Origin: a virus
Taxonomy: Duplodnaviria; Heunggongvirae; Uroviricota; Caudoviricetes
Direction: 5' to 3' (one strand)
Length of the DNA: 55,216 nucleotides
IMG/VR virus record: IMGVR_UViG_3300047274_000273
Span: 1-55,216 of that record
The translations under genes and the position numbers were made by a program. The notes beneath the pieces are model-generated. The model was not told the DNA's origin and did not search any database. It saw only the letters and a program-made list of their open reading frames with translations. Positions 4,757-17,374 of this stretch are shown piece after piece. Each line of letters begins with the position of its first letter. The first letter of the stretch is position 1.

Positions 4757-5944
4757 ATGACCTCTCCGGTATATGTTGAAGACATTTTCTTAAAGTTTTT
4801 CGATCTTGCTTGTTTAGATAAGATTGAACTTCTCCCCTATGATTGGAATATTTGTAGCAGTCTCAAGCAACAGCTGACTGATCAAAAACAGATCACTGCT
4901 AATCAGGGAAATTTTATTCTCAAGCTGTTGGGTAAACATGCGGCGATATCGGCAGAACAGGGCCTCGACTACGAGGATCAACTTCAAGTGCCGGTTTGGA
5001 AAAACGAATTTCGTGTGCTTGATCTAGAAAAGCGAGTTTTTCTAGAAAAAACCGACTCGGGCATTAATATCTGTTTCAAATTTCCCTACTCTCTAAAAAA
5101 TCTTTTCGATAAAGAGATCGACACAGACACGACATTTGGATCTAGCACTTGGGATAACGAAAGAAAACTTCGAGTCTGTAATTTTTACAATTATAATATC
5201 ATACGAGTCCATGAATTTTGCAAAAAACATGGATTCCATATGGACGAAAACTTCCTCGATGTGGTCAGTCAGGTCGAAGAAATCTGGGACCAACACGAAG
5301 AAATTGATTTCAGATCAAAGATCGAAGACAACGATGTTGTTTTAATCAATGCTCCTGAAGATACCCGCAATCAGTGGCAGGAAATCAAGACCGGTGATGT
5401 GTTCAAAGACAGTTTTTCGGCAAAATCTATGGGATATCCGGTCAAGTACGACCATGTGCCTAACACGGTCTTTGAGAAAATCTGTTCTGCGTCGGAAAAA
5501 CTGTTCTGGTTGAAAACCTATGAAGATTTTTTCTCAGTGCATCAAGCTGCGGGAGGCATTTCGGTAATCTTATTAGATAGGAATACCAAAGATATCGTGG
5601 AATATCTCAAAAAATTGGTTTCAACGGCTGATAATTTTGTAGATCGATCTGATATTAAAATTTGTTTCAGAGAAGAAAAATCAGAAAATTCGAATCTCAA
5701 TAACTGGATCAAATCTTCGGGTCTAGGCGGTAAGGTTGATCAGGGAAAAATCTTGATTTTCCTCCATAAACCTGCCAAGTGGTTGTTTGCTAAGAGCATA
5801 GATGTTAAAATTATAGGTACTAATAGTTATACCCCGCACATGGAACCTATCTCTGCCAGCTGGATACAGAGCCATCCCTGCATTTTATACGTAGACGATG
5901 TGAAACCAACATCGCCGAGGAACAAAAAAATTGTCAACTTGTAA
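4757..5944 (+). CDS. Hypothetical protein upstream of the helicase
   Basis: 395-aa ORF with a TTGACT...TATCAT promoter-like site upstream; overlaps the helicase start. Confidence 0.7.
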   Translation: MTSPVYVEDIFLKFFDLACLDKIELLPYDWNICSSLKQQLTDQKQITANQGNFILKLLGKHAAISAEQGLDYEDQLQVPVWKNEFRVLDLEKRVFLEKTDSGINICFKFPYSLKNLFDKEIDTDTTFGSSTWDNERKLRVCNFYNYNIIRVHEFCKKHGFHMDENFLDVVSQVEEIWDQHEEIDFRSKIEDNDVVLINAPEDTRNQWQEIKTGDVFKDSFSAKSMGYPVKYDHVPNTVFEKICSASEKLFWLKTYEDFFSVHQAAGGISVILLDRNTKDIVEYLKKLVSTADNFVDRSDIKICFREEKSENSNLNNWIKSSGLGGKVDQGKILIFLHKPAKWLFAKSIDVKIIGTNSYTPHMEPISASWIQSHPCILYVDDVKPTSPRNKKIVNL

Positions 5945-7385
5945 ACTTATCATCAAAGATGAAGTCAATATCAAGATAGAAGGACTGGCCGTTGAAACAA
6001 GACGAAAGATCGTCAACGAACTAAAGTTTGATCTGCCCTATGCAAGGCATATGCCAGCATATAAACTAGGAAGATGGGATGGAACAAAAACCTATTTTGG
6101 AATTGGCGGTAATGGTTATCTTGCTCATCTTGATGTTATACTTCCTATTATAGAAGACTCCGGATACGACATAGAGATAGAAGATCTCCGGCAACATCAG
6201 TCTCTTAAATTCCAACCCATAGGCGAAAATTATTGGGCCGATCAAGGCAAGACTTGGCCTAAAGGTCATCCACAGGCCGGAACGCCCATCGTATTGAGAG
6301 ATTATCAATACGATGTGGTTAATAAATTTTTAGAAAATCCACAATCATTACAGGAGGTAGCCACTGGTGCCGGTAAAACTATTACTACTGCGACGTTATC
6401 GCATCTTTGTGAGGTATATGGCCGTACGATGGTTATTGTTCCGAACAAATCGCTTGTTGTACAGACTGAAGAAGACTATAAAAATCTCGGACTAGATGTT
6501 GGGGTTTACTTTGGTGATCGTAAAGAATTAAATCGTACACATACTATCTGCACATGGCAGAGTCTTAATGTGCTAGACAAGAAAAGTTATGATGATGAGA
6601 CCTTGACCCTGGCAGAGTTTTGTGACGGTGTGGTAGCCATCATCGTAGACGAAGTTCATCAGGCCAAGGCCGATGTATTGACTAAGTTGCTGACACAAAA
6701 CTTTAGACACTGCGCCATACGTTGGGGTCTAACAGGTACAGTGCCCAGAGAAAAATGGGAGTTTCAAGGTATCCTTGCCAGCATAGGTCCTGTGATAAAT
6801 CAAGTATCTGCACATGATCTACAGCAAAAAGATGTGCTGGCACAACTCCATATCAATGTACTACAGACTACTGACGTTCAGGTATTTAGAAGCTATCAAG
6901 AAGAATATACATATTTGGTCACAGATGCTGCGAGAATTGATTGGTTTGGTAATAAGATCAAAGAAATATCACAAACAGGTAATACACTGATATTAGTCAA
7001 TAGGATCGATACTGGAAATAAGCTAATGACTTTATTACCCGAAGCAGTGTTTATTTCAGGCGCAGTAAAACTAGACGATAGAAAAGAAGAGTATGACGAA
7101 ATTAAAACAAGTGATAACAAGATTATTGTGGCGACTTACGGTGTGGCCGCTGTGGGTATTAATATCCCACGTATTTTTAATCTGGTTCTTCTTGAGCCCG
7201 GAAAGAGCTTTGTCCGCGTTATACAAAGTATTGGACGAGGCATTAGAAAAGCCGAAGACAAGGACTTCGTTCAAATTTGGGACATCACGAGCACCTGTAA
7301 GTACGCCAAGCGGCATCTTACGGAGAGGAAGAAATTTTATAAAGAAGCGAAATATCCCTTTACAGTAACCAAGGTAACAATATGA
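5931..7385 (+). CDS. uvsW: UvsW-like SF2 DNA helicase
   Basis: ATGAGKT, DEVH, GLTGT and QSIGRGIR helicase motifs; T4-like context. Confidence 0.88.
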   Translation: MSTCKLIIKDEVNIKIEGLAVETRRKIVNELKFDLPYARHMPAYKLGRWDGTKTYFGIGGNGYLAHLDVILPIIEDSGYDIEIEDLRQHQSLKFQPIGENYWADQGKTWPKGHPQAGTPIVLRDYQYDVVNKFLENPQSLQEVATGAGKTITTATLSHLCEVYGRTMVIVPNKSLVVQTEEDYKNLGLDVGVYFGDRKELNRTHTICTWQSLNVLDKKSYDDETLTLAEFCDGVVAIIVDEVHQAKADVLTKLLTQNFRHCAIRWGLTGTVPREKWEFQGILASIGPVINQVSAHDLQQKDVLAQLHINVLQTTDVQVFRSYQEEYTYLVTDAARIDWFGNKIKEISQTGNTLILVNRIDTGNKLMTLLPEAVFISGAVKLDDRKEEYDEIKTSDNKIIVATYGVAAVGINIPRIFNLVLLEPGKSFVRVIQSIGRGIRKAEDKDFVQIWDITSTCKYAKRHLTERKKFYKEAKYPFTVTKVTI

Positions 7386-9239: not shown

Positions 9240-9705
9240 ACACGTAGATCTTTTCAAGGACATGATCCCAGCAGTAGACATGGGGTTAAAAGAGCTTTGG
9301 GATGCTGCCACAGAAGATGGTCGAAAAGAAATCAAAGGCGATCTATGGAATCTGAATCGTTATATCAGCAGTGTGAAAACAAACAACAAAGAACTACAAG
9401 AGCATTATGTTCTCACTGTAAATGAATTCTATAATAAGAATTGGAATGAGATTTCTAAACATCCCAAGCTTCAATGGATGACTCTAACATTGGCCAGCCA
9501 CGAGAGTAAGAAAACTCAGTTCCATGAATGGCTTCCTCTTAAGAGAGAGAAAAACAAGAAAGAAGAATTCTTAGCCGGCCTATTTCCTAATATGAAATGG
9601 GCTGATATCGAAACCTTGGCAGCAACCACTACAGACAAAGAAATCAAAGAATACTGCGCACTGTTGGGTTGGGATAAGAAACAAATTGCAGAACTCAAAT
9701 TATAA
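9226..9705 (+). CDS. Putative clamp-loader small subunit (T4 gp62-like)
   Basis: Size, WNLNRYISS...HPKLQW...FHEW pattern and replication context. Confidence 0.5.
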   Translation: MGKNKHVDLFKDMIPAVDMGLKELWDAATEDGRKEIKGDLWNLNRYISSVKTNNKELQEHYVLTVNEFYNKNWNEISKHPKLQWMTLTLASHESKKTQFHEWLPLKREKNKKEEFLAGLFPNMKWADIETLAATTTDKEIKEYCALLGWDKKQIAELKL

Positions 9706-10372
9706 GTGTGAATACTGCGGCAAAGACTTTGCCAGAGAAAAAACTCTAGCCGTGCATATCTGCGAACAAAAACGCAGGCATCTCAGCAAGGCAGAAAAGC
9801 ATGTACAGGCCGGTCTTTTAACCTTTCAGCGATTTTATGATATCGCACAGAAAGGCAAGAGTAAAAAAACATTTGACGAATTCGCCCAGAGTCCTTATTA
9901 TACAGCCTTTGTTAAGTTTGGTAGTTTCTTAGTCAACACTGCTCCTATCTATCCTGAAAGATTTATCGACTTTGTAGTTAAGAGTGGGGTAAAATTAGAT
10001 CATTGGTGTAGAGACGAACTCTATGAACAGTATGTCTCGGAAATGATCAAAGCAGAACCTGCAGATGGGGCTATACAGCGTACTATCAAAACTATGATGG
10101 ACTGGGGAGATGCTAACAATGCTCCTTGGGAACATTATTTCCAATATGTAAACCTCAACAGGGCCACACACGATATCAAAGAAGGACTGGTCAGTCCGTG
10201 GATGGTGTTAAATAGCAAGTCAGGTAAAGATATGCTTAAAAAGATGAATGACGAACAATTAGAAATTATTGGACCTATTATAGATCCTCAATTCTGGTTA
10301 AGGCGATTCAGAGCATTGCCTGCAGATGTTGAGCTTATCAAAGATGTAATCAAAGAAGGTAAAATTTTATAA
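9686..10372 (+). CDS. Protein with N-terminal C2H2/C2HC zinc finger
   Basis: YKCEYCGKDFAREKTLAVHIC. Confidence 0.7.
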   Translation: MQNSNYKCEYCGKDFAREKTLAVHICEQKRRHLSKAEKHVQAGLLTFQRFYDIAQKGKSKKTFDEFAQSPYYTAFVKFGSFLVNTAPIYPERFIDFVVKSGVKLDHWCRDELYEQYVSEMIKAEPADGAIQRTIKTMMDWGDANNAPWEHYFQYVNLNRATHDIKEGLVSPWMVLNSKSGKDMLKKMNDEQLEIIGPIIDPQFWLRRFRALPADVELIKDVIKEGKIL

Positions 10373-10599
10373 TGCCTAAAAGACCCAAGCTAGAACCGCA
10401 AGTAGAAGAAGAATTATCCGAGAATGAAGAATTTATTTCTAGAGATGATATCGATATAGAAGTGGTAGTGGCAGAAGATGCTCCAGATGTATATGTAAAA
10501 TTTTCCGGGTTTGATGATCACGAGGATGCTGAAGAATATGCTCAATTTTTAGCAGACACCCTACCTTTACTACTTTTTGAAACAACGAGGTTACAATGA
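10372..10599 (+). CDS. Acidic hypothetical protein
   Basis: Coupled 75-aa ORF. Confidence 0.55.
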   Translation: MPKRPKLEPQVEEELSENEEFISRDDIDIEVVVAEDAPDVYVKFSGFDDHEDAEEYAQFLADTLPLLLFETTRLQ

Positions 10600-11456
10600 A
10601 AAAAATATTAATCATGGGATTGCCCGGTTCGGGTAAAACTTACTTTGCCGAGAGATTGAAAAAATTTCTCGAAGAAAATTCAACCATAGATCATATTCCT
10701 CCCGAAGGATTGATGTATCTAGAAATGTTACCGCATTCGTGGACGGCCAAAGTCAAATGGTTCAATGCTGACGAAGTTAGACAACGATACAACGACTGGG
10801 ATTTCAGTAGGGAAGGTCGAATTAGGCAAAGTATACGAATGGCCGAATTCGCACTAAAGTCTAATGCTGATTTCGTGATCTGTGACTTTGTTGCTCCGTT
10901 GCCTGAGATGCGACACAATTTCAAAGCAGACTGGACTATCTGGATCGATACTATCAGCGAAGGTAGATACGAAGATACTAACAAAGCATTTATACCGCCA
11001 GATGTCTATGACTTCAGGATCACCGAACAAAATGCTGAAAAATGGGTTGAGTTTGTAGGCATGCATATCTTGGAGAACAGACGCCGCCCAAAATTTGACT
11101 GGCAAAAGGAAACTGTGCAGATGCTAGGACGTTGGCAACCTTGGCATGACGGACATCGAGCACTATTTGAGAGAGCCATCGCTAAAACTGGCCAAGTAGT
11201 TATACAGATCCGTGATTGTCAAGGCTGGCAAGGCTCTAATCCTTTTGCAATTGAGCAGGTTAAAAACTTCATTAAAAAAGATTTAGATCCTATCTATCAA
11301 GGACAATACGAAATACAAGTAGTACCTAACGTTGTAAACATTACCTACGGTAGAGATGTAGGCTATAAGATCGAACAAGAAACATTCGATGAGTCAGTTA
11401 CTTCTATTTCTGCCACGGCTATTCGTAAACAACTTAAAGCAGCAGGTAAGCTCTAA
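10596..11456 (+). CDS. Adenylylsulfate-kinase-like domain fused to an HxGH nucleotidyltransferase domain
   Basis: GLPGSGKT P-loop, DFSREGRIRQ, ICDFVAP; C-terminal GRWQPWHDGH. Confidence 0.8.
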   Translation: MKKILIMGLPGSGKTYFAERLKKFLEENSTIDHIPPEGLMYLEMLPHSWTAKVKWFNADEVRQRYNDWDFSREGRIRQSIRMAEFALKSNADFVICDFVAPLPEMRHNFKADWTIWIDTISEGRYEDTNKAFIPPDVYDFRITEQNAEKWVEFVGMHILENRRRPKFDWQKETVQMLGRWQPWHDGHRALFERAIAKTGQVVIQIRDCQGWQGSNPFAIEQVKNFIKKDLDPIYQGQYEIQVVPNVVNITYGRDVGYKIEQETFDESVTSISATAIRKQLKAAGKL

Positions 11457-12034
11457 TGCCAGACATTGACATAGATTTTGTAGACCGAGAACAGGCACTA
11501 AAACATTTAAATTTTGTAGGTGCCAGCAGATTAGACGATAACCGTCTGGTCAAACACAATACCGGAGTTTATCTTCATGAAGTTCCGGTAGATGCGGTCA
11601 CAGGTCTGTGTCAAGTTCCCTATGAGCAAGCAGAAGAATTGGGTTACTTTAAGATTGATTTTTTAAATGTTGGAATCTACAAGGGTGTTCGTAGTGAAGA
11701 GCATCTTGTTCAGTTAATGTCAACGGAGCCATTATGGGATTTATTACAACAAACCGAATTTGTCGATCTGTTATTTCACTTGAACGGGCATGGGGATGTT
11801 CTGAAGAAGACCTGCCCTACTTCCGTGGAACAATTAGCTGCGGTCCTCGCTATGATCCGCCCAGCCAAACGTTATCTGATTGGGAAGCCATGGACGACGA
11901 TCATGCAGGAAGTTTGGACCAAGCCAGAGACTGGTGATTATTATTTTAAGAAAAGCCACGCTACTGCTTATGCTGTGGCCATCGTTGTGCAGATGAATCT
12001 AATCTGCGAAGGTGTGAGCTATGGCTTTAGTTGA
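11456..12034 (+). CDS. Miniature DNA polymerase III alpha (DnaE)-like protein
   Basis: PDIDIDF, FKIDFL, AMIRPA and FKKSHATAYA in 192 aa. Confidence 0.82.
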   Translation: MPDIDIDFVDREQALKHLNFVGASRLDDNRLVKHNTGVYLHEVPVDAVTGLCQVPYEQAEELGYFKIDFLNVGIYKGVRSEEHLVQLMSTEPLWDLLQQTEFVDLLFHLNGHGDVLKKTCPTSVEQLAAVLAMIRPAKRYLIGKPWTTIMQEVWTKPETGDYYFKKSHATAYAVAIVVQMNLICEGVSYGFS

Positions 12035-12602
12035 TCTAGACATCGATGCTTTTGCATCATCTCAGATTCAAAGTAAATTATGGCTTGTAAAAACTTTAGA
12101 AAAAACTCTACAAGAACATGAGCCGATCGAGCACGATCGAGGATATAAGATTTGGATATTGGCTGGTTGGTACGGTCTAGTAAATTTTCTTTTACAGGTA
12201 AGAAGTAACATTCGAATCGATCAAGTAAGATCATTTGATGTTGACCCTTCGTGTGCAGGTATCGCAGATCGAATCAACAGTTTATGGGTTTGGAAAAATT
12301 GGCAGTTCAAGGCCGAAGTTTATGATATTAACGAATTAAACTACAATAATCCCCCTGACATCGTAGTCAATAGTTCTGTAGAACATATGGCTCTAGATCT
12401 ATGGTGGGAGAAGATTCCAACAGGTACGGTGGTTTGCCTACAGGCCAGCGATATGGATCACGACGATCATGTTAATAAATTCCATAGCACACACGACATG
12501 CTAGTGTCTTATCCATTAAGTGATCTATACTACGAAGGCGTGAAAAGATTTGAATACGATGATTTCTCTTTTCATCGTTTTATGATAATAGGTGTTAAGT
12601 AG
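12021..12602 (+). CDS. SAM-dependent methyltransferase-like protein
   Basis: ILAGWYG, SFDVDP, VVNSSVEHM. Confidence 0.6.
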   Translation: MALVDLDIDAFASSQIQSKLWLVKTLEKTLQEHEPIEHDRGYKIWILAGWYGLVNFLLQVRSNIRIDQVRSFDVDPSCAGIADRINSLWVWKNWQFKAEVYDINELNYNNPPDIVVNSSVEHMALDLWWEKIPTGTVVCLQASDMDHDDHVNKFHSTHDMLVSYPLSDLYYEGVKRFEYDDFSFHRFMIIGVK

Positions 12603-12966
12603 GTTTTCGTACTAGAGTAATACTTTTACGCTTGATTCTCTTAACAATAATATCATTAAGGCTGGTACATGGTCCTAGATTGACCTTGACATCTTTGGTA
12701 GAAAAATTCCGTATAGCGTAGCGAAATTCAGCTATTTCTTTGAGTAGAAATATGTTGATCGGAATTTGACGGTTACTTTCCCACCACCATACTTCACCTA
12801 GTTCTAAAAACTTTGCTTTATCTGGATCGCTTTTAATCAGGCTATAATCATACATACTAGTGACTTGAGAATCCTGATTTATGATGATGCCTACATATTC
12901 CTGATCTACGTGAGTTAGTATACTGATAAATGGAAAATTTTGTTGTAAGTTTTCTGTTATTCTCAT
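12595..12966 (-). CDS. Hypothetical protein
   Basis: 123-aa ORF with a WWWESNR motif. Confidence 0.65.
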   Translation of the reverse strand: MRITENLQQNFPFISILTHVDQEYVGIIINQDSQVTSMYDYSLIKSDPDKAKFLELGEVWWWESNRQIPINIFLLKEIAEFRYAIRNFSTKDVKVNLGPCTSLNDIIVKRIKRKSITLVRKPT

Positions 12967-12995: not shown

Positions 12996-13823
12996 ATGCA
13001 AGCAATTTCAGTTTATTTATATCCAAACAAACTAGATGTATTTACTAATTTACCAGACTCTTGGACTTCAGAGAGGTATCGCAGAGTGTACAATAGAACA
13101 TTAAAATTATATCGTGGTGTAACTAACAAGGTAGATATCCAGGTTAGAAATTCTGATGAAAAAGCCCTAGACATCACAGGCTACACTCTAGTCTTTAATC
13201 TAATCAACCAAGAAACTAAAGAACTTATCCTACAACAAGATTTCCAACCGATCGACGGTAGTAGTCTTTTAAGAGGTAGATTAAGTGTCAATCTAAGCGA
13301 ATCAGCTCTAGAAGGAGTTGAGCCAGGCTTCTATAACTACACAATAGTCAAAGAAATAAGAACCCAAATTGGCAATAATTACACTGTGACAGAAAGAACA
13401 CCTCTGTACATAGACAGCCAATATGGAACTTTTGCTGCTCTTGAGATCCACGATAATTTACTCGGAGAACCGCTAGACAGTGAAAAAATTATAGCATTCA
13501 ATCAATACAATCCGTTTGAAGATCCTAAATATTTTATCAGTAGTATCATTGATGCGAGACCAGAACTGTCGACTACACAGAGCCTACATACTTTCCAATT
13601 TAATATGACTCAGTATCACGGGCAAATCGTTATACAAGGTTCCCAGAGTGAGGGCGGTAATCCACAGATTTGGGTCGATCTTGAAGACGGAACCTTTGAT
13701 CTCTCAGGCGAATCTATAGCCTACAAAAACATCGTCGGTAAATTCAATTGGTTTAGGATAAAGCATTTACCAGATACTTCTATTAACAATTACGGATCAG
13801 TTGACAGCGTACTATACAGATAG
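12996..13823 (+). CDS. Putative virion structural protein
   Basis: Beta-rich Ig/BppU-like N-terminus; TAAATA at 12970. Confidence 0.5.
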   Translation: MQAISVYLYPNKLDVFTNLPDSWTSERYRRVYNRTLKLYRGVTNKVDIQVRNSDEKALDITGYTLVFNLINQETKELILQQDFQPIDGSSLLRGRLSVNLSESALEGVEPGFYNYTIVKEIRTQIGNNYTVTERTPLYIDSQYGTFAALEIHDNLLGEPLDSEKIIAFNQYNPFEDPKYFISSIIDARPELSTTQSLHTFQFNMTQYHGQIVIQGSQSEGGNPQIWVDLEDGTFDLSGESIAYKNIVGKFNWFRIKHLPDTSINNYGSVDSVLYR

Positions 13824-13835
13824 TATACTGTTTGT

Positions 13836-14864
13836 ATGACCCTGGTTGTTGACAAATTTCGTTCGCTACTCCCACCTCGAGCTAAACACAGCCCTTCTGG
13901 CTGGACTAGCTTTAATGCTCCTTGCTGCCAACATCGAGGTCATAGCCCTGACACACGTAAGCGAGCAGGAGTTCGATTCGACGGCAGCGGTATTGTCTAT
14001 AATTGTTTCAACTGTAAATTTACCACAGGTTGGCAACCAGGATCGCCTTTTGGCGAAAAGATGAAAACCTTATCTCGATGGTTAGGTGCCAACGACGATG
14101 ATATCAAAACCATGACCTTCGAAGCTCTTAAGACCGAAGGCGAAGAATATCAGCCCACCGAATATCAACACAAAGTAGATTTTGAAGAAAAATCTCTGCC
14201 AGACCATGCCATGTCGTTAATGGAGTGGAGCGGAATCATCGAAGGTGAAATTGAAGAACAGCTAGGCGCCCAATTTGTTGAAGTGCTACGATATCTTATG
14301 AATAGGGGCTATGATAACCCGTTTAATCATGATTTTTATTGGAGCCCTACTCCGGGCTATATTGATCGTGTTATCATTCCGTTTCGATGGCAAGGTAGAA
14401 TAGTAGGCAATACTGCGAGAAAGATCACCACCGGTAAACCTAAATATCTTTCTGATCAACATCCTTATTTTGTTTTTAATGTTGATACACAAAAAGAAGA
14501 ACATCAGTATGTGTTTGTCTGCGAAGGCCCGTTTGATGCGCTAGCCATAGGTGGAGTTGCTCTACTCACTAACGAAGTTAGTCCACAACAAGCTCGAATA
14601 ATTAATAGTATAGGCAAACAAGTAATAGTGATTCCCGATCAGGATCGGGCAGGTATTGTATTGATTTCACAGGCAGCTGAATTGGGTTGGTCCGTGGCAT
14701 TTCCTAATTGGCAAGACGATGTAAAAGACTGTGCAGAAGCGGTATCAAAATACGGAAAATTATTTACTATAGTCGATGCTATTGAAACATCAACTAATAA
14801 TCTTGCAAAAATAGAAATAGAAAAAAGAAGATTATTAACGAAATTGGAGATATCGAATGTATAA
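13836..14864 (+). CDS. DNA primase (gp61-like, zinc finger plus TOPRIM)
   Basis: CC..H...CFNC zinc site; VCEGPFDA and PDQDRAG TOPRIM motifs. Confidence 0.88.
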   Translation: MTLVVDKFRSLLPPRAKHSPSGWTSFNAPCCQHRGHSPDTRKRAGVRFDGSGIVYNCFNCKFTTGWQPGSPFGEKMKTLSRWLGANDDDIKTMTFEALKTEGEEYQPTEYQHKVDFEEKSLPDHAMSLMEWSGIIEGEIEEQLGAQFVEVLRYLMNRGYDNPFNHDFYWSPTPGYIDRVIIPFRWQGRIVGNTARKITTGKPKYLSDQHPYFVFNVDTQKEEHQYVFVCEGPFDALAIGGVALLTNEVSPQQARIINSIGKQVIVIPDQDRAGIVLISQAAELGWSVAFPNWQDDVKDCAEAVSKYGKLFTIVDAIETSTNNLAKIEIEKRRLLTKLEISNV

Positions 14865-14973
14865 AAAGATTTTAGATTTTTTGTTATATCCCATAACAAA
14901 ATATAGAGAACATCGGGCTTGGAAAAAACGTCTAGCTGAGCTTAAGAAGCGTGATCCATTTATCTACAAATGA
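14857..14973 (+). CDS. Small basic protein (38 aa)
   Basis: MYKKILDFLLYP...DPFIYK; overlaps both neighbours; not in the supplied ORF track. Confidence 0.5.
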   Translation: MYKKILDFLLYPITKYREHRAWKKRLAELKKRDPFIYK

Positions 14974-15940
14974 TTACCTGGGGAATAAATGCATTAAATC
15001 ACGATGCCAGCATTGCTGTAATGGTTGATAACGAACTACGTTTCTGGAGAAGAGCCAGCGAATATTCGAATATCAAAGGCGACGATAAACTAAACAGCGG
15101 ATTGATCAGAGATGCACACTAAATGCCGGTGGCGGGCGAGGTCCGGGAGATATTGTTTGGTATGAAAGACCATGGTTAAAAAAATCTAGGCAGTTGTATG
15201 CAGGACAGTATCGTTGGGCATTTGATTTTACAGAATTACCATCTGTGTACCTGAAAAAATTTAAATTAGATTATGCCAAGATACACTACATACCACACCA
15301 TCTAAGTCATGCTGCTGCAGGATTCTTAACTTCGCCGTTTACTGATGCAGTGGTTGTGGTATTAGATGCCATGGGTGAATGGGAGTCTGCAACTATCTGG
15401 CAGGGCCATCAGAATAGTCTTAAAAAATTATGGAGTCGCAGTTATCCTACTAGTCTTGGCTTGTTCTATTCTGCATTCACAGATCTTATAGGACTGCAAC
15501 CAGTAGGAGAAGAGCATTTCTTACAACAGATGAGTGAGAGAGGAGACCCTCATCGATACGGTGGAACCGTTTACGCATATTGGAAACGAAATTGGCGGTT
15601 GAAACACAATCTCCATAGAGGTGTAAGAAATTGGCCGCACCCCATACAAACAGATCAAGATCGATACGATATTGCTGCTGCTGTGCAATCTGTTTTTGAA
15701 CTGCAGGCCTATGAAGTCATACAGACAGCTAAACATCTGTCCACTAGCAGGAATCTAGTATATATGGGAGGTTGCGCCATGAACTCTAAATTCAATAAAA
15801 TATTGCCCGATGAGTTTGATCATACATGGAGTTTACCTATCCCAGGTGATGCAGCCAGTTCAATGGGTGCTGCTTTATACTTTAAAAAGACCAGACACAG
15901 ATACAAGGGCGATCTTGCAAAACACTTAGAAATCAAGTAA
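14970..15940 (+). pseudogene. Carbamoyltransferase N-terminal (Kae1-like) domain, frameshifted near 15117
   Basis: MITWGINALNHDASI in frame 3; YERPWLKK, HHLSHAA, LDAMGE and GGCAMNS in frame 2; an extra CA at 15117-15118. Confidence 0.8.
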
Positions 15941-15949
15941 AATAACTAT

Positions 15950-17374
15950 ATGATAAAAGATTACGGATACGAGATACAAAAACTTTATCTAGAATTGATG
16001 CTGGCAGATGCAGAAATATTTGTACGCTGTCAGGGTATTTTCGATCATACACTATTTGATCGTAAGCTACAAGATGCTGCCGAATTCATTAATATCTATG
16101 CTAAAGAATACAATGTTCTGCCCGAGTATGACATGGTCAATGCCAGTTGCAGAATCGACCTTAAGCGTCCAGAGGAAATAAAACAAGGACACAACGATTG
16201 GCTCATGGATGAGTTTGAAAATTTTACTCGTCATAAAGCCCTAGAACGTGCGATCATCAATTCGGCAGATTTACTTGAAAAGAAAGATTATGGCCAAGTA
16301 GAATCTATGATCAAAGAAGCAGTTCAGATTAGTTTGACCAAAGATCTAGGCACTGACTACTTTGAAGATCCTAGAGCACGTCTCATGCGCATCAAAGATA
16401 AAAATGGTCAGATCAGCACAGGTTGGCCTAGTCTTGATCGTAGGCTATTTGGCGGTATGAACAGAGGCGAATTGAACATCTTTGCAGGCGGATCAGGTGC
16501 AGGTAAATCTTTGTTCTTGGCGAACTTGGGCGTGAACTGGTGTTTGCAGGGACTGAATGTTCTGTATCTAACATTAGAACTTTCCGAAGATCTAGTCGCC
16601 ATGCGTATTGACGCGATGACCACCGGCATATCAACAAAAGAGATTTTTAAAGATCTAGAAAATGTTGAAATGAAGGTTAGGGTGATCGGTAAGAAAGCAG
16701 GTAAGCTACAGATCAAATACATGCCATCGGGTAAGACTGCCAACGACCTACGTGCATATATGAAAGAATTTGAAATTAAGACCGGCAGTAAAATTGATGT
16801 GCTGTTAGTCGACTACTTAGACTTATTAATGCCGGCTAGTCGTAAGATTTCCGCAGAAAACCTGTTTATCAAAGACAAATATGTGTCAGAAGAACTGCGT
16901 AACCTAGCAATGGAAAAACAATGTATTCTTGTAACCGCAGCACAGTTAAATCGCGGTGCTGTTGAAGAAGTGGAGTTCGATCACAGTCATATCTCGGGTG
17001 GACTGTCAAAGATCCAAACAGCAGATAACGTGTTTGGTATTTTTACATCCCGGGCTATGCGTGAGCGTGGCAGATATCAAATCCAGTTGATGAAGACTCG
17101 TTCATCTAGCGGTGTTGGACAAAAGGTTGATCTAGAATTTAATCTAGAAACACTTAAGATCAGCGATTTACCTGAAGAAGAACAAGAAAGTCATAACGGT
17201 GCTAGTCGCGGTAGTTCTAGCATCATTGAACAGATCAAACGTAAGACAGAAGTACAGCGTGAGGAACCATCAGACGGCACACCAGCTCCTAAAGTAAGAG
17301 CCCACGTAGAAAGTACCAAACTACGTGAGATTCTTAACAACATGGGCGGTGATGATGAAGACTCACCGTTTTGA
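15950..17374 (+). CDS. Replicative DnaB/gp41-like helicase
   Basis: AGGSGAGKS Walker A, YLTLEL, LVDYLD, TAAQLNR. Confidence 0.93.
   Translation: MIKDYGYEIQKLYLELMLADAEIFVRCQGIFDHTLFDRKLQDAAEFINIYAKEYNVLPEYDMVNASCRIDLKRPEEIKQGHNDWLMDEFENFTRHKALERAIINSADLLEKKDYGQVESMIKEAVQISLTKDLGTDYFEDPRARLMRIKDKNGQISTGWPSLDRRLFGGMNRGELNIFAGGSGAGKSLFLANLGVNWCLQGLNVLYLTLELSEDLVAMRIDAMTTGISTKEIFKDLENVEMKVRVIGKKAGKLQIKYMPSGKTANDLRAYMKEFEIKTGSKIDVLLVDYLDLLMPASRKISAENLFIKDKYVSEELRNLAMEKQCILVTAAQLNRGAVEEVEFDHSHISGGLSKIQTADNVFGIFTSRAMRERGRYQIQLMKTRSSSGVGQKVDLEFNLETLKISDLPEEEQESHNGASRGSSSIIEQIKRKTEVQREEPSDGTPAPKVRAHVESTKLREILNNMGGDDEDSPF

What the first reader, a model, noticed from the sequence alone, without database searches (positions are those of the whole stretch)
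11456..12034. 192-aa DnaE-like protein: a minimal C-family polymerase core in a T4-like replisome
Seen: PDIDIDF and KIDF (the three catalytic Asp positions), AMIRPA and FKKSHATAY are all present, with no PHP, clamp-binding or OB domains, and no adjacent fragments encode them. Known: DnaE is over 1000 aa, and T4-like phages replicate with family-B gp43. Inference: a stand-alone nucleotidyltransferase with a new role (priming, end modification or signal synthesis), perhaps partnered with the nearby zinc-finger protein, or one half of a split polymerase.
Basis: partly seen in the sequence, partly recalled or inferred. Interest (0 to 1): 0.7.

Follow-up and report, generated by a model that had tools for sequence, protein, structure and literature searches.

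The report
Half of split mini-DnaE polymerase
This 192-residue giant-phage gene is real and is the metal-binding half of a stripped-down, two-gene version of the bacterial replicative polymerase (Pol III alpha/DnaE); the enzyme was described from sequence in 2021 and has never been tested at the bench, so this is a correct re-discovery.

Summary

The protein lacks the nucleotide-binding GS-motif half of the palm. In relatives (RaK2, Phosso, three IMG/VR jumbo phages) that half is a separate gene of about 160-177 aa. It ends just before the point where this protein begins, and in the closest relatives it lies about 180 kb away. It is not in this 138-kb record, which is only 39% complete. Three natural 375-376-aa fusions and a controlled complex prediction link the two halves.

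The relatives have no PHP domain or other DnaE piece, and they carry a gp43-like family B polymerase.

Iyer et al. 2021 (PMC7824862) described exactly this "split minimal Pol III alpha" of group 2.2 jumbo phages. This scan has also met it many times on other DNA. The function is still untested. Verdict: real, already known.

The parts
11456..12034 (+). C-terminal (metal-binding, template-contacting) unit of the split minimal Pol III alpha, 192 aa
11459..11479 (+). PDIDIDF: catalytic strand. D3 and D5 correspond to E. coli alpha D401 and D403; D7 corresponds to D405
   Evidence: Sequence; phmmer alignment to the MPDIDIDF of Mtb and Taq DnaE; D3 90/91, D5 90/91, D7 88/91; in the complex model this strand touches residues 126-128 of the N unit
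11648..11662 (+). FKIDF: K66 and D68 correspond to E. coli alpha K553 and the third catalytic Asp D555 (palm strand Pbeta5)
   Evidence: Profile alignment to E. coli alpha 539-641; K66 and D68 invariant in 91/91
11849..11866 (+). AMIRPA: R135-P136-A137 correspond to E. coli alpha R639-P640-G641, residues next to the templating nucleotide
   Evidence: Alignment; R135 90/91, P136 91/91; role of R639/P640/G641 taken from bioRxiv 10.64898/2026.06.29.735100
11939..11971 (+). YYFKKSHATAY: Y162, F164, K166 and H168 correspond to E. coli alpha Y754, F756, K758 and H760 (helix-loop-helix lining the nascent base-pair pocket)
   Evidence: Alignment; Y162 63/91, F164 74/91, K165 84/91, H168 89/91; residue roles
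11734..11937 (+). 67-codon ORF nested in frame +2 of the gene (candidate overprinted gene; a side observation)
   Evidence: ORF; the frame is stop-free in 23 of 27 distinct orthologous genes, against 0.2 expected under synonymous resampling; frame +1 is open in 0 of 27
9686..10372 (+). Context: C2H2 zinc-finger protein (phrog_11058), a conserved upstream neighbour
   Evidence: upstream on the same strand in 80 of 80 related loci, and also in Phosso and RaK2
12595..12966 (-). Context: conserved small reverse-strand gene (phrog_11637)
   Evidence: present in 79 of 80 related loci; present in Phosso and RaK2
13836..14864 (+). Context: gp61-type DNA primase (Toprim)
   Evidence: phrog_47 at 9.4e-31, PF13155; downstream in 67 of 80 loci (limited by the flanks fetched) and in RaK2 and Phosso
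15950..17374 (+). Context: DnaB/gp41-like replicative helicase
   Evidence: phrog_19 at 2.5e-71
5931..7385 (+). Context: UvsW-like helicase
   Evidence: phrog_16 at 7.8e-78; 46% identical to RaK2 UvsW

Best explanation
The gene encodes the C-terminal unit of the two-subunit 'minimal Pol III alpha' of RaK2-like (group 2.2) jumbo phages. This unit supplies the second half of a Pol-beta-type palm: the strand with D3/D5 (E. coli D401/D403) and the strand with K66/D68 (K553/D555). It also supplies a cut-down 'middle finger' that keeps the residues next to the templating base (R135-P136) and the incoming nucleotide (Y162, F164, K166, H168). The first half of the palm carries the invariant GRGS triphosphate-binding motif. 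It is a separate protein of about 160-177 aa whose gene lies far away, about 180 kb in the closest relatives, and beyond the end of this incomplete contig. Inferred: the two proteins assemble by completing one beta-sheet into a small template-dependent DNA polymerase. That polymerase has no PHP, thumb, index finger, clamp-binding or OB parts. It would work as an accessory short-patch enzyme (primer extension, gap filling or repair) beside the phage's gp43-like family B replicase. Shown here: homology, fold, residue conservation, existence and co-occurrence of the partner in relatives, and natural fusions. Not shown: assembly in vitro, any catalytic activity, the substrate, or the role in infection.
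For: Family: phrog_11778 full length at 1.5e-66; 405 clusters at 50% identity, nearly all of 180-220 aa; 96 cultured jumbo phages carry it.
Catalytic and template-contacting residues are conserved and map to residues of known role.
The split point is constant: 89 of 91 C units begin at most 17 residues before DxDxD.
Natural fusions of N and C units, 375-376 aa, in three clusters with PF07733 hits.
Complex prediction of N unit (G002) with this protein: score 0.92, best of 3 controls 0.01. That mark was reached by 58 of 80 solved complexes and 2 of 110 mismatched pairs; these counts hold only roughly because my own alignments were used. The runs agree in at least 92% of contacts and the partner's pLDDT is at least 91. 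The lowest-error contacts pair N-unit residues 126-128 with C-unit residues 6-8. DnaE is solved as a single chain, so this pass may partly be memory of that fold.
No PHP domain in 5 relatives, including complete genomes. phrog_405 and PF17657 hit only the two units.
A family B polymerase of about 890-1010 aa is present in RaK2, Phosso, G001, G002, G003 and G004.
Published description of exactly this arrangement: Iyer et al. 2021, PMC7824862.
Against: The N unit was not found in this record. tblastn, a motif scan and an HMM search with filters off over the 138 kb gave a best E of 0.066, on a stretch without the motifs. For this particular phage the partner is therefore inferred from relatives and from the record being 39% complete.
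No biochemical evidence exists for polymerase activity or for assembly. The held literature has nothing after the 2021 sequence analysis.
The index-finger residues that close on the dNTP in E. coli alpha (R709, R710, K714, K715) and the DNA-gripping thumb have no counterpart. Templated DNA synthesis is therefore not assured.
Pfam PF07733 does not reach threshold on this protein.
Confidence: 0.87

Rival explanations
1. The N+C heterodimer forms, but it is not a templated DNA polymerase. It would be a nucleotidyltransferase with another job, for example RNA-primer extension only, terminal transferase or end modification, or synthesis of a small nucleotide product.
For: The thumb, index finger, clamp-binding and OB parts that give DnaE its DNA grip, dNTP closure and processivity are all missing. 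The phage group already has a complete family B replicase. The gene sits 1.8 kb upstream of the primase in most relatives.
Against: Residues that in E. coli alpha lie next to the templating nucleotide (R639-P640) and stack on the incoming base (Y754, H760) are conserved in the family. That fits templated synthesis. No signalling-type effector or sensor gene is a conserved neighbour.
Confidence: 0.1
2. One reading: the 192-aa protein is a stand-alone nucleotidyltransferase that works without other DnaE parts.
For: All three catalytic aspartates lie in this one protein, and no DnaE-like partner is in the 138-kb record.
Against: It lacks the hG[GS] triphosphate-binding element and the first strand and helices of the Pol-beta fold. 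Relatives encode these in a co-occurring gene that stops exactly where this one starts. Fused forms exist. The record is 39% complete, and the partner lies about 180 kb away in the nearest relatives.
Confidence: 0.02
3. It is a catalytically idle relic or a decoy, for example a DnaE fragment that binds host replisome parts.
For: Extreme reduction compared with DnaE; no experimental activity is known.
Against: The metal-binding Asp residues, K66, R135/P136 and H168 are near-invariant across 91 members that share only 32-61% identity with this protein. The DnaE surfaces that bind beta, tau and epsilon are absent.
Confidence: 0.01

Closest known systems
Split minimal DNA polymerase III alpha of group 2.2 jumbo phages (Iyer, Anantharaman, Krishnan, Burroughs, Aravind 2021, Viruses 13:63, PMC7824862); C-terminal unit = phrog_11778
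   Same: Same family, size and start point at the catalytic strand. The partner N unit is encoded far away. The arrangement occurs beside a family B polymerase and without any other DnaE domain.
   Different: Nothing essential. This copy comes from an uncultured phage fragment in which the N unit and PolB lie outside the captured DNA. Rare natural fusions of the two units (375-376 aa) are not mentioned in the passages of that paper that I read.
Bacterial replicative C-family polymerases DnaE and PolC (e.g. PDB 2hnh, 3e0d, 5lew, 3f2b)
   Same: Pol-beta-type palm with the D401/D403/D555 triad and K553. Also shared are the R639-P640 and Y754/F756/K758/H760 motifs, in the same order and the same fold.
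   Different: About 350 aa in two chains instead of 1100-1400 aa in one. There is no PHP domain and no room for the thumb (47 aa where E. coli has 133). The index finger is gone (about 98 aa missing between residues 140 and 151), as is everything beyond E. coli residue 781. Pfam PF07733 is below threshold.
Full-length phage DnaE (phrog_405, e.g. Bacillus phage G-type, Pseudomonas phage nickie)
   Same: Weak but collinear profile matches of both units. The N unit finds these proteins by tblastn at 1e-5 to 3e-6.
   Different: Those are complete single-chain polymerases with a PHP domain and serve as the phage's only replicase. This one is minimal, split, and accompanies a PolB.

Membership tests
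Split minimal Pol III alpha, C-terminal unit (phrog_11778; Iyer et al. 2021) | Full-length sequence match to the family profile | tested here: met
   phrog_11778 at E 1.5e-66; residues 3-185 match profile positions 8-193 of 197
Split minimal Pol III alpha, C-terminal unit (phrog_11778; Iyer et al. 2021) | Protein of about 190-200 aa that begins at the DxDxD catalytic strand and keeps the Mg-binding triad | tested here: met
   192 aa; D3, D5 and D68 present, and kept in 90-91 of 91 members; members start 1-17 residues before the motif
Split minimal Pol III alpha, C-terminal unit (phrog_11778; Iyer et al. 2021) | Separate N-terminal NTP-binding unit (GRGS motif) encoded elsewhere in the same genome | tested here: inconclusive
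   Not found in the 138-kb record, which is 39% complete. Found in Phosso, RaK2, G002, G003 and G004; about 180 kb from the C unit in G002 and G003 and about 167 kb in G004
Split minimal Pol III alpha, C-terminal unit (phrog_11778; Iyer et al. 2021) | Accompanies a family B polymerase in a T4-type replication set; no other DnaE domains in the genome | tested here: inconclusive
   This record: primase, DnaB-like helicase and UvsW are present, but no PolB in the fragment. Relatives: PolB present, no PHP domain
Bona fide DnaE/PolC (C-family replicative polymerase) | Pfam DNA_pol3_alpha (PF07733) above the gathering score | tested here: not met
   No Pfam family at E <= 0.1; no PF07733 match in the record at E <= 10
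Bona fide DnaE/PolC (C-family replicative polymerase) | N-terminal PHP domain | tested here: not met
   The protein starts at the catalytic strand; no PF02811 match in 5 related genomes
Bona fide DnaE/PolC (C-family replicative polymerase) | Thumb, full fingers, clamp-binding motif, OB domain | tested here: not met
   192 aa span E. coli alpha 400-781 with about 190 residues missing, and the protein ends there; the C-terminal tail is not conserved
Bona fide DnaE/PolC (C-family replicative polymerase) | Palm fold with the catalytic Asp triad | tested here: met
Pol-beta-type nucleotidyltransferase superfamily (as a self-sufficient domain) | hG[GS] motif together with [DE]x[DE] and a third acidic residue in one polypeptide | tested here: not met
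   The acidic residues are present, but no GS motif lies upstream of D3 because the protein starts there. In relatives the GRGS motif sits in the separate N unit

The most novel reading that the evidence does not exclude
The reconstituted two-subunit mini-Pol III would be a dedicated primer-extension or gap-filling polymerase, physically coupled to the neighbouring gp61/gp41 primase-helicase, that hands over to the gp43-like family B replicase. That would make a phage replisome with a division of labour between a bacterial-type C-family enzyme and an archaeo-eukaryotic-type B-family enzyme. It would also define the smallest working C-family catalytic core, about 350 aa in two chains.
Probability: 0.2. 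Interest if true: 0.7.

Novelty: already known. Interest (0 to 1): 0.25.

Why it matters
C-family polymerases are the bacterial replicases and are normally over 1000 aa. A conserved two-chain core of about 350 aa in hundreds of giant-phage lineages marks what is minimally needed for that chemistry. Iyer et al. proposed it as a picture of the ancestral enzyme. It also raises the question of why a phage that has a full family B replicase keeps a second, tiny polymerase. None of this has been tested at the bench, so the biology is open. The observation itself is published, however, and this window adds only another member. It also adds supporting models, the exact split point, rare natural fusions and neighbourhood statistics.

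Tried and rejected
1. Pfam on the protein: no family. PF07733 and PF00136 on the 138-kb record: no match. This says little because the record is 39% complete.
2. A motif scan for G[RK]GS in six frames found only an unrelated 224-aa CCA/poly(A)-polymerase-like NTase at G000 88278-88952. That protein has its own GG...DxD motif and is not the N unit.
3. Searches for the N unit in the record: tblastn with five N units and an HMM of 41 N units with filters off. The only hit was a sub-threshold match (E 0.066) to a 110-aa frame at 71729-71400 that lacks W66, Y72 and GRGS. I took it as chance.
4. Folding the natural fusion P0085 was abandoned. MAFFT placed the N units against the C half in alignments A3 and A4. 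The N unit was folded alone instead.
5. P0051 (1386 aa, 20 repeated stretches) is a repetitive artefact. P0151 (350 aa on a 2-kb contig) has an unrelated N-terminal part joined to the last third of a C unit, probably a chimera. Neither was used.
6. The supplement of Iyer et al. is not held, so their accession lists could not be compared.
7. The 193-aa ORFs at 12021-12602 and 1388-1969 are not paralogues.
8. RaK2's DnaQ-like exonuclease (ORF117, upstream of UvsW) has no counterpart in this record by tblastn.
9. No paper after 2021 on this enzyme turned up in the held library.
10. Pairing with the zinc-finger protein could not be tested, because the single complex job went to the N/C pair.

Full report
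OBSERVATION. The ORF 11456..12034 (+) encodes 192 aa. Its ATG overlaps the stop of the upstream gene (TAATG). Single-sequence phmmer against PDB chains gives only weak matches to Pol III alpha. They are strictly collinear, however: residues 1-13 with Mtb DnaE1 413-425, residues 91-137 with 616-663, and residues 159-174 with 772-787. Pfam finds nothing. PHROGs gives a full-length match to phrog_11778 ('DNA polymerase', 197 positions, E 1.5e-66) and a weak one to phrog_405, the full-size phage DnaE.

FAMILY. tblastn finds the protein in 96 cultured phages, all at below 60% identity. The phages listed are nearly all jumbo phages and include Atu_ph07, Phosso, PA5oct, XacN1, RaK2, K64-1 and 121Q/PBECO4. 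An exhaustive HMMER search finds 405 clusters at 50% identity (E <= 1e-3). Of the best 150 hits, 91 are 180-225 aa long. IMG/VR holds at least 557 loci. In an alignment of 91 full-length members (32-61% identical to this protein), K66, D68 and P136 are invariant. D3, D5, D7, H34, G37, R135, K165 and H168 are kept in 90% or more. Eighty-nine of the 91 begin at most 17 residues before the DxDxD motif. A profile of this alignment matches E. coli alpha 539-641 and 739-768 at E 3.3e-6.

ACTIVE-SITE MAP. A 2026 preprint on E. coli Pol III ternary complexes (bioRxiv 10.64898/2026.06.29.735100) lists the residues around the dNTP and the templating base:
- the GS motif R362-G363-S364 on Pbeta1;
- D401 and D403 on Pbeta2;
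- R390 and K553;
- R639-P640-G641;
- Y754, F756, N757 and H760, with K758 as a pivot;
- R709, K714 and K715 of the index finger.
By the alignments this protein keeps D401/D403 (D3/D5), K553/D555 (K66/D68), R639-P640 (R135-P136), Y754 (Y162, 63/91), F756 (F164), K758 (K166) and H760 (H168). It has no GS motif and no index finger. The same preprint treats 271-393 as a rigid part of the palm and says the remaining part, which carries D401/D403, undergoes significant conformational change. The phage split falls at that boundary.

THE OTHER HALF. A six-frame search with phrog_405 in complete relatives finds a second small gene that matches profile positions 357-436:
- Phosso 97210-97740, 177 aa, E 1.9e-10.
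- RaK2 near 149.1 kb, 172 aa, E 3.3e-8.
- G002 (364 kb, 100% complete), G003 and G004, with E down to 1.3e-11.

IN THIS GENOME. The window lies in a 137,994-bp IMG/VR record that is rated 39% complete. No N unit is present in it. The motif scan, tblastn with five N units and an HMM search with filters off all failed. The best hit had E 0.066 and lacked the invariant motifs. No PolB is present either. In G002 the C unit is at about 12 kb, PolB at about 167 kb and the N unit at about 192 kb, all on one strand. G003 has the same layout, and in G004 the two units lie about 167 kb apart. Oriented like this window, both missing genes would lie upstream of the C unit. This record has only 11 kb upstream. 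Their absence is therefore what an incomplete contig predicts. It remains an inference for this phage.

DO THE HALVES BELONG TOGETHER? There are three lines of evidence.
1. The N unit ends and the C unit begins at consecutive DnaE positions, and this split point is constant across the family.
2. Three clusters of natural fusions exist (P0085, P0152, P0153). They are 375-376 aa, 78-81% identical to each other, and carry precomputed PF07733 hits. Each has an N unit followed directly by a C unit. They form one narrow clade, so fusion is rare.
3. A complex prediction of the G002 N unit with this window's C unit, each given as an alignment, scored 0.92. The best of 3 controls scored 0.01. That mark was reached by 58 of 80 solved complexes and 2 of 110 mismatched pairs; the counts hold only roughly here because my own alignments were used. 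The runs agree in at least 92% of contacts, and the partner's pLDDT is at least 91. The lowest-error contacts put N-unit W126-V128, the strand before GRGS, against C-unit I6-F8, the catalytic strand. This is the sheet completion expected from DnaE.
Because DnaE structures are solved as one chain, this pass may reflect memory of that fold. It shows likeness, not binding.

WHAT IS NOT THERE. No PHP domain (PF02811) is found in Phosso, RaK2, G002, G003 or G004, while the search rings in all 14 control genomes. phrog_405 (1190 positions) and PF17657 match only inside the two units. These phages do carry a family B polymerase of about 890-1010 aa. The enzyme is therefore truly minimal and is an addition to a gp43-type replicase, not a replacement for it.

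NEIGHBOURHOOD. The window shows a T4-type module:
- UvsW-like helicase, 5931-7385.
- C2H2 zinc-finger protein, 9686-10372 (phrog_11058).
- 75-aa acidic protein, 10372-10599.
- the C unit, 11456-12034.
- small reverse-strand gene, 12595-12966 (phrog_11637).
- virion-structural-like gene, 12996-13823.
- gp61-type primase, 13836-14864.
- carbamoyltransferase-like insert.
- DnaB/gp41-like helicase, 15950-17374.
Among the 80 nearest IMG/VR loci, the zinc-finger gene is upstream in 80, the reverse-strand gene is present in 79, the structural gene in 75 and the primase in 67; the primase count is limited by the flanks fetched. The same order holds in Phosso and RaK2. The kinase/HxGH-nucleotidyltransferase gene just upstream (10596-11456) is in 0 of 80 loci. 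The 193-aa ORF just downstream (12021-12602) is in 7 of 80. Both are local insertions and not partners. The zinc-finger link is conserved synteny inside a conserved block; no interaction was tested.

LITERATURE AND EARLIER SCAN NOTES. Iyer et al. [quoted passage not shown] They suggest it may cooperate with PolB in the synthesis of one strand or in repair. I found no later experimental work. After I had reached this reading, I looked in the scan's own index. The same family has been noted many times on other DNA with the same conclusion.

MECHANISM AND RIVALS. Best reading (0.87 for identity and architecture): this is the C unit of a heterodimeric mini-Pol III. The polymerase role is inferred from the kept residues that contact the templating base and stack on the incoming base. 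Processive replication is unlikely without a thumb, an index finger and a clamp motif, so a short-patch role is the most economical guess. The short-patch candidates are primer extension next to the primase, gap filling and repair. The rivals are:
- a heterodimer with a non-polymerase transferase activity (0.10);
- a stand-alone transferase (0.02), contradicted by the missing GS half;
- an inert relic or decoy (0.01), contradicted by near-invariant catalytic residues.

VERDICT. The feature is real but already published, and the scan has met it repeatedly.

IN PASSING. A 67-codon ORF (11734-11937) lies in frame +2 inside the gene. Its ATG is preceded by GGAG with a 5-nt spacer. In 27 distinct 579-nt orthologous genes, that frame is stop-free over nt 278-476 in 23. 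Synonymous-codon resampling expects 0.2 of 27, and frame +1 is open in none. It is not open in RaK2. An earlier scan finding described the same nested ORF on another genome. The ATG is partly forced by the conserved W94 codon, and the orthologues are not independent, so this is suggestive and not proof.

Noticed in passing
window 11734-11937 (+): A 67-codon ORF is nested in frame +2 of the mini-DnaE gene, with GGAG 5 nt before its ATG. The frame is stop-free in 23 of 27 distinct orthologous genes, against 0.2 expected under synonymous resampling, and frame +1 is open in 0 of 27. It is not open in RaK2. This is a candidate overprinted gene of the freshwater clade, also noted by scan finding e1-5322465 on another genome.
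   Followed up: partly
window 10596-11456 (+): A 286-aa fusion of a P-loop kinase (APS-kinase/KTI12-like, phrog_10255) with an HxGH cytidylyltransferase-like C-terminal part lies directly upstream of the mini-DnaE gene. It is absent from all 80 nearest related loci, so it is a lineage-specific insertion.
   Followed up: partly
window 12021-12602 (+): A 193-aa ORF overlaps the end of the mini-DnaE gene by 14 nt. It has no Pfam or PHROG match and is present in only 7 of 80 related loci. It is not a paralogue of the methyltransferase-like 193-aa ORF at 1388-1969.
   Followed up: partly
window 9686-10372 (+): A C2H2 zinc-finger protein (phrog_11058, function unknown) lies upstream of the C unit in 80 of 80 related loci, and also in Phosso and RaK2. 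A possible functional link with the mini-polymerase or the primase-helicase module was not tested.
   Followed up: partly
G000 88278-88952 (+), outside the window: A 224-aa Pol-beta-type nucleotidyltransferase with a GG...DIDIF motif (CCA-adding/poly(A)-polymerase-head-like) turned up in the motif scan for the N unit. It is not related to the split Pol III.
   Followed up: no
window 14970-15940 (+): Carbamoyltransferase-like (NodU/Nol-type, phrog_1601) coding sequence sits between the primase and the DnaB-like helicase, which are adjacent in RaK2 and Phosso. It appears as two ORFs (14970-15122 and 15194-15940) and may be a broken or inserted gene.
   Followed up: no
proteins P0085, P0152, P0153 (metagenomic, ENA/Logan): Natural single-chain fusions of the N and C units exist (375-376 aa) and form one narrow clade. 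They would be convenient constructs for testing the enzyme.
   Followed up: partly
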